From positions 1,142,125-1,206,124 of the forward strand of contig NZ_CP182357.1 of NCBI RefSeq assembly GCF_048571275.1: a stretch of DNA of 64,000 nucleotides, written 5' to 3'. The DNA is from Candidatus Marinarcus sp. GTDB taxonomy: Bacteria > Campylobacterota > Campylobacteria > Campylobacterales > Arcobacteraceae. Position numbers and translations under genes: made by a program. Under the pieces are notes generated by a model. The model ran no database searches. It saw only the letters and a program-made list of their open reading frames with translations, and was not told where the DNA came from. This document shows positions 48,560 to 50,564 of this stretch, one piece after another (the first letter of the stretch is position 1; every line of letters starts with the position of its first letter).

Positions 48560-50209
48560 CTATTTAATTTTTGTATATCTTTTAATGCCTAATTCTAGGT
48601 TTTTACGCCACAATTTAATTTTTTCTTCACTCATATCAATTCCATCATGCTTTGTCATAAAAAATTTACTAGCTCCAATGGCTTTTACATCTTCTAACAT
48701 TTGCTTATTGGTCTGATTTTTTAATATATTTATATTAAGCATAGTTTGAACTTGTGATTCACTAAATATTTCAGTAGATATAAAATACCAAGTATTCTTT
48801 TTCCAATAAATGTTATGCTCTACTTCAATAAAGTTTATAATTATATTCTTATAATTAAAATAGCCATATATCAAACGTCTAGCAACTTCTTTTTTAAAGT
48901 CTATAAAAAACTTATTAATATTTGATTCCTCAAAATTATCTAAATCAATAATCTCACTAATAGAAAATTCTTCAATCTTATTATTATCAATAAATGACTC
49001 AAACAATTCAAAAAAGTTTTCTATTTTAAAAGAGTTTTTTGTAATATCGTCATCAAGTAACTTTTGTTTAACTCTATTATTTCCGCTACCTTCACCTGGT
49101 CTATCAAGAGATTCATCTACTTCTTCATCAGTAACCTCATATGTTGTTCTTATATTATTTTGAATAATCTCATTTTTTTGAATGTTAATTTCTGAAAAGT
49201 CATATATATTTTCAACTTTAAATGATTCTTTGGATGTGGTATGTTTATCTGATGGTTTCTTTTCAGTAATTTTACCAGTAATGTGGGAATCTTTTTTTGG
49301 TATTTTTTTAGGTTCATCAGGATCAATTTTTTTAGTTTCTTCTGTTGTATTCTCTTTATAAACCTCGTGTTTTAAATTTTTAAAGTTATATGGTATTGTA
49401 TCTCCATAAATATGAGTAATTAATATAACATCTCTTTCATCAAAGGTTTCAAAATTATCTTTTGAATAAACATTTCCAAGATGGATTATTTTGCATTGAA
49501 TAATAAAATCTTCATGATCTTCAAAAGGAAAGCCCATATGAATTGGAATATAAAGGTTATCTATATGTTTATACTTTTCCTTGTAATGCGTTGTTTGTTT
49601 ATAAAAAAACATAAAATTTTTTTTCGATATCTCATTTGTAATCATTCTTGCAATTAAAGGTACTTGCTCATCTTTTAAAGTTTTTTTAGTTTTAATATAC
49701 AATGTATCGCCTATAAATTTGAAACCACTTTCTTCATAATATAATGTTGAGAATGATCCATTAGATAAAGCATTTTTTATACTTGATGACACAAAGTAAT
49801 ATCTATTTGCAACAACATAATTGGGTATCATATAAATATATCTTTTAGTTTCATAGAAGTAGCATTTTTGATTATAAAAAGCATCGCCTTCTTCGATTCC
49901 TATGTCATTAGGAAAACGAATATATTTTTTTATTTGAAAAGAATTTTTACTTGTAACTTTCTTTTTTGGAACAAATAACTTTTCGATTTTCATTCTATTC
50001 TCATGTTCTAAAGCATAGTTAGAATATACATTACCTAAAATATATTTACCTCTTAATTCTTCTGGTAATAGTAGTTCTTCATATTTTTCTAAACTATCAA
50101 TATCTTGAAAAATCACTTTATATCTATGAGGGTATTGGCAATTAATCTCATTAACTGCGATTAGTTTAAATTTGTTATTTGGATAATCTTCAAAACATTT
50201 TATTTTCAT
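48560..50209 (-). CDS. tnsE: TnsE-like target selector at the distal end of the element
   Basis: YMIPNYVVANRYYFVSSSIKNAL resembles the TnsE IPxLELARxxF motif; LIARMIT..F, GFPF, acidic linker and C-terminal IINFIEVE; ATG 50209 with GGAG RBS. Confidence 0.65.
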   Translation of the reverse strand: MKIKCFEDYPNNKFKLIAVNEINCQYPHRYKVIFQDIDSLEKYEELLLPEELRGKYILGNVYSNYALEHENRMKIEKLFVPKKKVTSKNSFQIKKYIRFPNDIGIEEGDAFYNQKCYFYETKRYIYMIPNYVVANRYYFVSSSIKNALSNGSFSTLYYEESGFKFIGDTLYIKTKKTLKDEQVPLIARMITNEISKKNFMFFYKQTTHYKEKYKHIDNLYIPIHMGFPFEDHEDFIIQCKIIHLGNVYSKDNFETFDERDVILITHIYGDTIPYNFKNLKHEVYKENTTEETKKIDPDEPKKIPKKDSHITGKITEKKPSDKHTTSKESFKVENIYDFSEINIQKNEIIQNNIRTTYEVTDEEVDESLDRPGEGSGNNRVKQKLLDDDITKNSFKIENFFELFESFIDNNKIEEFSISEIIDLDNFEESNINKFFIDFKKEVARRLIYGYFNYKNIIINFIEVEHNIYWKKNTWYFISTEIFSESQVQTMLNINILKNQTNKQMLEDVKAIGASKFFMTKHDGIDMSEEKIKLWRKNLELGIKRYTKIK

Positions 50210-50220
50210 CAATATTCTCC

Positions 50221-50266
50221 AGTTAAGTTTTTTGTTGTTGAGTTAAGTTTTTTGTTGTATATGACA
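50221..50266 (-). repeat. tnsE-proximal transposon end with two tandem TnsB sites
   Basis: AGTTAAGTTTTTTGTTGT at 50221-50238 and 50241-50258 (20-bp period), then ATATGACA. Confidence 0.92.
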
Positions 50267-50271
50267 TGACC
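50267..50271 (+). repeat. 5-bp target-site duplication TGACC (right copy)
   Basis: Matches 31793-31797. Confidence 0.95.
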
Positions 50272-50537
50272 ATAATGGTGTTGTTTGCACCTGCTGCTTG
50301 ATGTGCAATGGCATCCACGCCAAGTGCTCCCCCACTTACAATGCAAAAACCTGCAGAGGACAATTTGTTTGCGATGGTATGGGTGAAAATTTTTGTACTG
50401 GGAAAAGGATGTCTGGTGCCCACAATGGAGACTTTGGGTTTTTCTAAAAGTTGCGTATTTCCAATATAAAAGAGTTTTTCGGGATATTTTTGCATCACAT
50501 CAAGTGCATTTACATGAAAATCTAAACTCTGAATCAT
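50267..50537 (-). pseudogene. dprA: dprA 5' fragment
   Basis: YPEKLFYIGN; KVSIVGTR; IVSGGALGVDAIAHQAA; NTIMV; after the junction the frame continues into the transposon end and stops at 50223. Confidence 0.93.
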
Positions 50538-50555
50538 TGTCATCCTTTGGTAACA

Positions 50556-50564
50556 ATTATAACA
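50556..50564 (-). promoter_or_regulatory. Extended -10 promoter of dprA (TGTTATAAT)
   Basis: Perfect TGnTATAAT on the minus strand, 18 nt upstream of the probable ATG 50537. Confidence 0.65.

What the first reader, a model, noticed from the sequence alone, without database searches (positions are those of the whole stretch)
50209..50564. The host dprA promoter appears captured to drive tnsE
The tnsE ATG is only 57 bp inside the end, and that stretch is almost entirely two TnsB sites plus a GGAG RBS, with no clear -10. Outside, the extended -10 TGTTATAAT of dprA points inward, no terminator is visible, and the truncated DprA frame reads through the end and stops at 50223, 2 nt before the tnsE RBS. 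In this orientation the element could couple its dispersal pathway to host competence-gene expression, with TnsB occupancy of the end as a brake (inference).
Basis: partly seen in the sequence, partly recalled or inferred. Interest (0 to 1): 0.7.

Follow-up and report, generated by a model that had tools for sequence, protein, structure and literature searches.

The report
Promoterless tnsE behind host dprA promoter
An 18.5-kb Tn7-like transposon sits inside the competence gene dprA so that its plasmid-targeting gene tnsE, which has no room for a promoter of its own, lies directly behind the strong dprA promoter; relatives share this layout and usually carry a spare dprA just after tnsE.

Summary
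A Tn7-like element (31798-50266) with TGTCATATACAA termini and a 5-bp duplication (TGACC) splits dprA. The 549-aa gene starts 57 bp inside the left end. Those 57 bp hold two 18-nt TnsB-type repeats and a GGAG. The truncated DprA frame stops at 50223. The dprA promoter (TTGATA-17-TGTTATAAT) is the only match of 11/12 or better with TG in the 64 kb, and no terminator-like structure follows it.

The gene is a divergent TnsE. Its best PDB fold hits are all the TnsE C-terminal domain, and distant relatives reach Pfam TnsE_C.

Read-in transcription is supported only indirectly, because no RNA data exist for this organism. All five dprA insertions found have the same orientation. Four elements have the same compact, promoterless left end. 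A distant subfamily places tnsE about 29 nt after mnmG. In seven tnsE clusters of the close family, tnsE overlaps an element-borne full-length dprA.

TniQ targeting fixes the orientation anyway. A distal left-end tnsE is already known from Tn6022. Some relatives have an internal promoter. "Captured" is therefore better read as a built-in family layout. The window copy appears to have lost the spare dprA.

The parts
50556..50584 (-). dprA promoter: -35 TTGATA (50584-50579), 17-nt spacer, extended -10 TGTTATAAT (50564-50556)
   Evidence: 11/12 with TG; the only match of 11/12 or better with TG in 64 kb on both strands; shuffles mean 0.28.
50267..50543 (-). 5' fragment of host dprA (92 codons; likely start ATG 50537, SD AAGGA 50547-50543). 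It includes one copy of the target-site duplication.
   Evidence: Pfam DNA_processg_A positions 20-111. Removing the element and one duplication copy restores an intact 259-aa DprA ORF.
50267..50271 (.). 5-bp target-site duplication TGACC, left-end copy
50221..50266 (-). Transposon left end: terminal TGTCATAT followed by two 18-nt TnsB-type repeats (50258-50241, 50238-50221)
   Evidence: The same layout is found in L005, L010 and L012.
50223..50225 (-). TAA stop of the DprA'-left-end fusion frame, 13 nt before the tnsE ATG
   Evidence: In the compact left ends all three frames close at element positions 16-22, 42 and 56-65.
50217..50220 (-). GGAG ribosome-binding site of tnsE
   Evidence: The equivalent GGAG/GGAA directly follows TnsB site 2 in L005, L010 and L012.
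48560..50209 (-). tnsE-like gene (549 aa)
   Evidence: The six best Foldseek hits are the TnsE C-terminal domain, 5D17/5D16 (probability 0.89-0.99, the top five at least 0.97; TM-score on the target 0.51-0.56). Distant family members reach Pfam TnsE_C. The order/disorder pattern fits the NTD-DR1-DR2-CTD layout of E. coli TnsE (PMC12153342). This protein itself gives no direct Pfam, NCBIfam or PADLOC hit.
48420..48530 (+). 36-aa remnant of an IS1595-type transposase (Zn ribbon) immediately after tnsE, at the position where relatives carry dprA
   Evidence: Gene call with weak PF12760 in L011; sequence.
40540..48297 (-). Cargo: 69-aa ORF, ParB-like protein (47279-48079) and type I Wadjet jetABCD (47278-40540)
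36909..39401 (+). Cargo: Endonuclease I family nuclease (36909-37652) and the PDC-M43A/B candidate defence pair (37652-39401)
31906..36538 (+). Core transposition genes: tnsA (31906-32637), tnsB (32624-34480), tnsC/tniB (34473-35414), tniQ (35411-36538)
   Evidence: Pfam hits.
31798..31932 (+). Transposon right end (TGTCATATACAAAAACAAACTTAACT plus further degenerate repeats). A promoter-like site, TTGTAA-17-TATAAT, lies further in at 31943-31971.
31290..31797 (-). 3' two-thirds of host dprA, including the second TGACC copy at 31793-31797
   Evidence: Pfam DNA_processg_A positions 130-210; reconstruction.

Best explanation
Shown. An 18,469-bp Tn7-like transposon (tnsA-tnsB-tnsC/tniB-tniQ at the right end, defence cargo in the middle, a divergent tnsE alone at the left end on the opposite strand) has transposed into codon 92 of dprA.

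Inferred. TniQ-type targeting places the right end next to the selector's binding site. Every dprA insertion therefore puts the left end, and the inward-facing tnsE, behind the dprA promoter.

Shown. The left end is minimal: a terminus, two TnsB sites and an RBS, 57 bp in all. It contains no promoter.

Inferred. tnsE mRNA in this copy arises mainly by read-through from the near-consensus dprA promoter about 290 nt upstream. Ribosomes translating the DprA' fragment terminate 13 nt before the tnsE ATG, on top of its GGAG. This keeps the RNA covered, so Rho-dependent polarity is unlikely, and it allows re-initiation.

Inferred from comparison. This is a family design rather than a one-off capture. 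In most close relatives the same promoterless left end precedes a tnsE-dprA pair with a 22-bp overlap, so the host promoter would express both TnsE and a replacement DprA. The window element has apparently lost that dprA; an IS remnant sits in its place. The host is left with a broken dprA and tnsE under the dprA promoter. TnsB bound to the two sites could lower read-in. This last point is inference by analogy with TnsB autoregulation at the right end of Tn7.
For: - Ends, target-site duplication and restored ORF.
- Core genes.
- TnsE identity.
- Promoter unique in 64 kb.
- No terminator.
- No internal -10. An internal start is excluded because the N-terminus is conserved.
- Same orientation in 5 of 5 dprA insertions, at three different codons.
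- Compact left end (ATG at element position 57-58) in the window, L005, L010 and L012.
- All three frames close before or at the ATG.
- tnsE overlapped by a full-length dprA in L001, L005, L010, L012, L015, L016 and L020/L021. These DprA proteins are 68-95% identical to each other but only 47-59% identical to the adjacent host fragments (three fragments of 58-76 aa).
- Distant subfamily with tnsE about 48 nt from the terminus and about 29 nt after a co-directional mnmG.
- Literature: a left-end tnsE is functional in Tn6022 (PMC10293859, PMC11014353); right-to-left orientation with TniQ/TnsD selectors (PMC12153342); TnsB represses the right-end promoter of Tn7 (PMC9308760).
Against: - No RNA evidence of any kind. 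Only DNA metagenome runs hold this sequence.
- The promoter call is a consensus match.
- Orientation is fixed by the transposition mechanism, so it does not show selection for read-in.
- Some relatives have an internal promoter or a longer left end (L004 has TGTTATAAT inside the end; L001 has a roughly 250-bp spacer; L007, L014, L016 and L020 have a 417-419-aa gene first). The family therefore does not always rely on outside transcription.
- TnsB bound at the two sites, or Rho, could block read-in.
- The window copy may be a decaying derivative in which tnsE expression no longer matters.
Confidence: 0.6

Rival explanations
1. Incidental juxtaposition. Read-through from dprA happens only because a short left end landed in a transcribed gene in the orientation that TniQ dictates. 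It is not used or selected, and tnsE in this copy (which has already lost its partner dprA) is functionally irrelevant or decaying.
For: Orientation is fixed by the mechanism (PMC12153342). The element has lost the dprA that follows tnsE in seven tnsE clusters of the close family, with an IS remnant at that spot. Relatives with internal promoters exist. The element is fixed at flat depth with no empty-site reads, so there is no sign of recent activity.
Against: tnsE is an intact 549-aa ORF with all family-invariant residues. The compact promoterless left end with a conserved RBS and frame-closing stops recurs in at least four elements and, in another form, in the mnmG subfamily. That recurrence is hard to explain if outside transcription were irrelevant.
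Confidence: 0.2
2. tnsE has its own unrecognised promoter. This could be a hybrid promoter spanning the junction, a non-sigma-70 promoter, or a weak AT-rich -10 within the DprA' coding region or the terminal TGTCATATACAA.
For: The region is AT-rich. Weak -10-like hexamers exist in dprA' (TATATT at 50468-50463; AAAAAT with TG at 50491). TATACA lies in the terminus. Promoters in Campylobacterota depend mainly on the -10 (own knowledge).
Against: No hexamer of 5/6 or better lies inside the element before the RBS. The only scan hit there (TTAACT-18-TAAAAT, 50226..50197) has its -10 downstream of the ATG and would cut off conserved N-terminal residues. In any case, such a promoter would add to read-through from the much stronger dprA promoter rather than replace it.
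Confidence: 0.1
3. tnsE is effectively silent here. TnsB bound to the two left-end sites (or Rho, or RNA decay) stops incoming polymerases, and the element relies only on the TniQ pathway.
For: Two adjacent TnsB-type sites fill the gap between the terminus and the RBS. TnsB binding is known to shut off transcription at the right end of Tn7 (PMC9308760).
Against: Protein roadblocks are usually leaky. There is no terminator. In relatives the same left end precedes a full-length, conserved dprA that needs to be expressed.
Confidence: 0.1

Closest known systems
Tn6022 / AbaR backbone (Tn7-like, inserts in comM of Acinetobacter)
   Same: It has heteromeric TnsA/TnsB, a TniB-type TnsC and TniQ. A remote TnsE homologue is encoded near the left end, on the opposite strand, far from the core genes, and it works in a TnsABC+E assay (PMC10293859, PMC11014353). 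It inserts inside a natural-transformation gene in a fixed orientation.
   Different: The target here is dprA, not comM. No TnsF (tyrosine-recombinase-like co-selector) gene is present next to tniQ. The hosts are Campylobacterota. The left end is reduced to 57 bp, so tnsE has no promoter space. Relatives carry a replacement copy of the target gene. Transcription of Tn6022 tnsE is not addressed in the papers read.
Prototypic Tn7 (tnsABCDE)
   Same: TGT...ACA ends with repeated TnsB sites, a 5-bp target duplication, a TniQ-domain selector plus TnsE as a second selector, and TnsB sites overlapping expression signals (site 4 over the right-end promoter; PMC9308760).
   Different: In Tn7, tnsE is the last gene of the right-end operon and has the operon's own promoter. 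Tn7 inserts downstream of glmS without disrupting it. Here TnsB sites lie between an external promoter and the gene, which would make them a roadblock rather than a promoter occluder (inferred).
Integrating elements that rebuild or replace the gene they interrupt (own knowledge, not tested)
   Same: In relatives, insertion into dprA is accompanied by an element-borne full-length dprA placed where host transcription enters.
   Different: Those elements use site-specific recombinases and usually duplicate only the displaced gene segment. Here a transposon carries a complete, diverged dprA (47-59% identity to the adjacent host fragments) fused into an operon with tnsE. The window copy lacks it.
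Mobile elements that disable natural transformation (AbaR in comM; PMC11441513, PMC11472951)
   Same: In the window, the element inactivates a transformation gene. It also carries an Endonuclease I family nuclease.
   Different: PMC11441513 argues that hitting dprA should be disadvantageous because it abolishes transformation completely. The spare dprA in most relatives fits that argument. The window copy is the exception.

Membership tests
Tn7-like transposon | TnsA endonuclease plus DDE TnsB transposase | tested here: met
   PF08722/PF08721 for the 243-aa ORF; rve plus Mu-transpos_C for the 618-aa ORF.
Tn7-like transposon | AAA+ regulator TnsC/TniB and a TniQ-domain target selector | tested here: met
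   PF05621 at 2e-59; PF06527 at 4e-19.
Tn7-like transposon | TGT...ACA terminal inverted repeats with several TnsB-type repeats, and a 5-bp target-site duplication | tested here: met
   TGTCATATACAA at both ends, TGACC duplication, and a motif confined to the ends. Excision in silico restores dprA.
TnsE | C-terminal TnsE DNA-binding domain (Pfam PF18623; PDB 5D16/5D17) | tested here: met
   Fold: the six best PDB hits are all TnsE CTD (probability 0.89-0.99, the top five at least 0.97; TM-score on the target 0.51-0.56; E 0.02-0.18), on a model with mean pLDDT 70. Sequence: this protein has no direct Pfam hit, but family members reached by profile search score up to the cut-off (P0112 26.7 bits, P0025 26.1). 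UniRef names P0012 and P0174 'TnsE C-terminal domain-containing'.
TnsE | Two-domain layout: N-terminal domain with an internal disordered loop, a disordered linker, then the C-terminal domain | tested here: met
   The model is ordered at 1-285, low-confidence at 286-335, has a strand at 342-349, is low-confidence at 347-392, and has a CTD at about 395-549. E. coli TnsE has NTD 1-331 with DR1 271-315, DR2 332-380 and CTD 381-538 (PMC12153342).
TnsE | Beta-clamp binding motif in the N-terminal domain, and targeting of replicating or conjugating DNA | not testable with these tools
   The near-invariant segment IPxYVVANRYYF (residues 128-139) lies about where I recall the Tn7 TnsE clamp motif. This is memory only and was not tested. 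No plasmid-borne relatives were found.
Tn6022-like subgroup | tnsE at the left end, on the opposite strand to the core genes | tested here: met
   tnsE at 50209-48560 (minus strand) versus tnsABC-tniQ at 31906-36538 (plus strand). The criterion comes from PMC10293859.
Tn6022-like subgroup | TnsF co-selector encoded after tniQ; comM as the attachment site | tested here: not met
   After tniQ come a 93-aa ORF with no Pfam hit and an Endonuclease I gene. The target is dprA.
Read-in expression from a host promoter | Outward promoter upstream, co-directional, with no terminator and no internal promoter | tested here: met
   This is sequence-level evidence only.
Read-in expression from a host promoter | Transcripts that start at the host promoter and span the junction into tnsE | not testable with these tools
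   No RNA runs hold this sequence. Related loci could not be submitted for a run search.

The most novel reading that the evidence does not exclude
A clade of Tn7-like transposons in Arcobacteraceae and related Campylobacterota is built to use the promoter of the gene it lands in or behind. Its left end is stripped to two TnsB sites and an RBS, with stops in all three frames just before the start codon. The host's dprA (or mnmG) transcription and translation therefore feed straight into tnsE. In the dprA-targeting branch they also feed into an overlapping, element-borne replacement dprA. The transposon would thus swap the host's competence gene for its own copy and tie its plasmid-hopping selector to the same promoter. 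The window shows a derivative that dropped the spare dprA. It now both knocks out transformation and keeps tnsE on the dprA promoter. The conserved 22-bp tnsE-dprA overlap could even mean that DprA takes part in TnsE-directed targeting of incoming single-stranded DNA.
Probability: 0.4. Interest if true: 0.75.

Novelty: new variant of a known kind. Interest (0 to 1): 0.6.

Why it matters
Little is written about how Tn7-family elements control the TnsE (horizontal spread) pathway separately from the TniQ/TnsD (homing) pathway; the Tn6022 papers read here place tnsE at the left end but do not address its transcription. A promoterless tnsE fed by the target gene's promoter would give a simple rule: the TnsE level is set by where the element sits and by TnsB occupancy of the left end.

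dprA appears to be an undescribed Tn7-like attachment gene. No paper in the searched library links the two. A transposon that brings its own copy of the competence gene it breaks bears directly on the current debate about mobile elements manipulating natural transformation. One study (PMC11441513) predicted that dprA insertions should be disfavoured. The window copy, which lacks the spare dprA and carries an Endonuclease I nuclease and Wadjet, would be a natural test case.

Tried and rejected
- Direct family scans of the 549-aa protein (Pfam, NCBIfam, PADLOC) and a PDB sequence-profile search gave nothing. Identity came only from the fold search and from distant relatives.
- RNA evidence is absent. 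Only three DNA sediment-metagenome runs hold the junction.
- Laying the DNA contigs on the window showed flat depth and no empty-site joint. The two listed joints are 21-23-nt chance matches.
- The metagenome scan added only three loci.
- tblastn against plasmids found nothing.
- An internal promoter (TTAACT-18-TAAAAT) with a downstream start was considered and rejected, because residues 5-30 are conserved across the family.
- I first read L001 (left end, tnsE and intact dprA without tns genes) as a deletion caused by recombination between the element dprA and the host dprA remnant. L001 and L012 share 93-100% identity well past dprA, so the picture is more complex and remains unexplained.
- The orientation of Tn6022 tnsE relative to the comM promoter could not be established from the papers.
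Full report
**What is at the coordinates.** All positions here are read on the minus strand. The dprA 5' region runs from ATG 50543 (more likely 50537) down to 50267. At 50266 the sequence becomes TGTCATATACAA. Two exact 18-nt repeats, ACAACAAAAAACTTAACT, follow at 50258-50241 and 50238-50221. Then come GGAG (50220-50217) and ATG (50209), which opens a 549-codon ORF ending at 48560. The DprA' frame continues through the end and stops at TAA 50225-50223.

**The element.** GC content drops from 0.33-0.35 to 0.24-0.29 between about 31.8 and 50.3 kb. 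The same TGTCATATACAA terminus occurs in inverted orientation at 31798. Both ends are flanked by TGACC, at 31793-31797 and 50267-50271. The motif ACAAnAAnnAACTTAA occurs without mismatch only at these ends in the whole window. Deleting 31798-50266 plus one TGACC copy restores an uninterrupted 259-aa DprA.

Inside, next to the 31798 end, lie tnsA, tnsB, a TniB-type tnsC and tniQ. The cargo comprises:
- an Endonuclease I family gene;
- a PDC-M43A/B-like pair;
- DUF2188;
- a complete type I Wadjet system (jetABCD);
- a ParB-like gene.

This is an 18,469-bp Tn7-like transposon inserted at codon 92 of dprA. The right end abuts the 3' part of dprA, and the left end abuts the promoter-proximal part.

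**Is the 549-aa gene tnsE?** It has no direct hit in Pfam, NCBIfam, PADLOC or PDB sequences. Three lines of evidence nevertheless support the call.
- An AlphaFold model built from 13 homologues (mean pLDDT 70) has the TnsE C-terminal domain (5D17, 5D16) as its six best PDB matches, with probability 0.89-0.99 (top five at least 0.97) and TM-score on the target 0.51-0.56. The next hits have probability of 0.3 or less.
- A profile search finds 134 cluster representatives, mostly 540-590 aa. Several distant ones reach Pfam TnsE_C at or near the cut-off. UniRef names two members accordingly.
- The model's pattern of ordered and disordered segments matches the NTD-DR1-DR2-CTD layout described for E. 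coli TnsE (PMC12153342).

I accept 'tnsE-like'. The clamp-binding function was not tested.

**The promoter side.** TTGATA-17-TATAAT preceded by TG (50584..50556) scores 11/12. My own scan shows that it is the only site of that quality on either strand of the 64 kb, against 0.28 expected in shuffles. No terminator-like hairpin followed by a U-run lies between it and 50150, even with lax criteria. Inside the element, upstream of the RBS, there is no -10-like hexamer of 5/6 or better. The single scan hit there has its -10 after the ATG and would remove conserved N-terminal residues. By contrast, the right end has room for signals and holds a 10/12 promoter-like site. The DprA' ORF is translated to within 13 nt of the tnsE ATG, so there is no long untranslated stretch for Rho to act on (inference).

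**Comparative evidence.** Contexts of homologues were fetched.
- *Insertions in dprA.* Five lineages are inserted in dprA: the window (codon 92), L001/L002/L003/L013 (codon 76), and L004 (Aliarcobacter butzleri), L010 and L012 (codon 58). In all five the left end faces the dprA promoter and tnsE is co-directional with dprA.
- *Compact left end.* The compact left end (terminus, two TnsB sites, RBS, with the ATG at element position 57-58) recurs in L005, L010 and L012. In all of them the three reading frames close at element positions 16-22, 42 and 56-65, which is before or overlapping the start codon.
- *The mnmG subfamily.* A distant subfamily (L017-L019; Aliarcobacter and relatives) has a different end sequence but the same logic. 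tnsE starts about 48 nt from the terminus and about 29 nt after the stop of a co-directional mnmG. TniQ, TniB and TnsB lie on the other strand at the far side.
- *Counter-examples.* L004 has a perfect TGTTATAAT inside the left end. L001 has a spacer of about 250 bp with a third TnsB site. L007, L014, L016 and L020 have a 417-419-aa gene between the end and tnsE.

**The unexpected part.** In L001, L005, L010, L012, L015, L016 and L020/L021, tnsE is followed by a full-length dprA whose start overlaps the tnsE stop by 22 bp. These DprA proteins hit Pfam DNA_processg_A over its full length. They are 68-95% identical to each other but only 47-59% identical to the three host dprA fragments of 58-76 aa, including those beside them in L001 and L010. 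They are therefore an element-borne lineage. On a neighbour-joining tree of TnsE, this dprA is present on both sides of the root of the close family, and absent only in the window and in L007. Loss is the simpler reading. In the window, a 36-aa IS1595-type remnant sits exactly where dprA would be. An overlapping dprA has no promoter of its own, and the compact left end has none either. In L010 and L012 the only visible source of transcription for the replacement dprA is the host dprA promoter. This is the strongest indirect argument that read-in is used by the family.

- TniQ/TnsD selectors give right-to-left insertions (PMC12153342). Uniform orientation is therefore expected whether or not read-in matters.
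- A distal left-end tnsE on the opposite strand is already described for Tn6022-like elements and works in E. coli (PMC10293859, PMC11014353), so the architecture as such is not new.
- No transcript data exist. Only DNA runs hold this sequence, at flat depth and without an empty site.
- Whether dprA is competence-regulated in this unnamed host is unknown. The promoter looks like a strong constitutive one.
- TnsB acting as a brake is plausible by analogy with Tn7 right-end autoregulation (PMC9308760), but here it would be a roadblock. This was not tested.

**Host.** The host could not be named. The nhaA / Mur-ligase / aminotransferase block is syntenic with the Arcobacteraceae-like contig L001. 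TnsE relatives come from Aliarcobacter, Arcobacter, Malaciobacter and Sulfurimonas.

**Verdict.** It is better described as a built-in layout of a dprA-targeting Tn7-like family than as a capture event. In this family the layout normally also serves a replacement dprA that this copy has lost. I found no literature on Tn7-like elements in dprA or on element-borne dprA. I rate it a new variant of a known kind, with interest 0.6.

Noticed in passing
L001:11644-12429; L005:8642-9427; L010:5598-6380; L012:1761-2546; L015:5915-6700; L016:1767-2552; L020:3003-3785: In most close relatives, tnsE is followed by a full-length element-borne dprA that overlaps its stop by 22 bp. These copies are 68-95% identical to each other and only 47-59% identical to the adjacent host dprA fragments of 58-76 aa. 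The window element lacks this gene.
   Followed up: partly
window 48420-48530 (+): A 36-aa N-terminal remnant of an IS1595-type transposase (Zn ribbon) lies directly after tnsE, at the position of dprA in relatives. It may mark the deletion that removed the element dprA.
   Followed up: partly
window 36909-37652 (+): The cargo includes an Endonuclease I family nuclease (Pfam 6e-37) with a hydrophobic N-terminus. Together with the broken dprA, it could further reduce DNA uptake or transformation (inference).
   Followed up: no
window 40540-47278 (-) and 47279-48297 (-): A complete type I Wadjet system (jetA, jetB, jetC, jetD) is preceded by a ParB-like gene and a 69-aa ORF. The element also carries a PDC-M43A/B-like pair at 37652-39401.
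   Followed up: partly
L001:9750, L004:9891, L010:3920, L012:61, window 50266: Insertion points in dprA differ (after codons 58, 76 and 92). L001 and L012 carry 93-100% identical tnsE-dprA-cargo DNA but sit at different codons. This is unusual for TniQ-directed homing and remains unexplained.
   Followed up: partly
L001:9750-15056: The left end, tnsE, dprA and some shared cargo run into host nhaA. No tnsABC, tniQ or right end was found. A 200-bp divergent patch lies at the dprA 3' end relative to L012. This may be a truncated or recombined element.
   Followed up: partly
L005:6480-7020: The same compact left end is inserted 17 codons into a small ORF just downstream of a type II (Cas9-Cas1-Cas2) CRISPR array. 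The last, degenerate repeat of the array reads TGTTATAAT on the strand pointing toward tnsE.
   Followed up: no
L017:77-125; L018:9953-10001; L019:~9950-10001: A distant tnsE subfamily sits at the 3' end of mnmG (gidA). mnmG reads into the end and stops there, and tnsE starts about 29 nt later.
   Followed up: partly
L007:127 and L008:126: The same element end (TGTCATTTACAAGAATAATC...) has two different flanking sequences in two samples. This is evidence of recent mobility to sites other than dprA.
   Followed up: no
L004:11520-11616: The A. butzleri tnsE copy is cut at codon 508 by unrelated sequence just before the contig end. This is probably an IS insertion.
   Followed up: no
window 49826-49792 (TnsE residues 128-139): The near-invariant segment IPxYVVANRYYF lies about where I recall the beta-clamp-binding motif of Tn7 TnsE. 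This is a lead from memory and was not tested.
   Followed up: no
window 50537-50547: The dprA start is probably the second ATG (50537), with SD AAGGA at 50547-50543. The -10 box ends only 9 nt upstream of the SD, so the leader is very short.
   Followed up: partly
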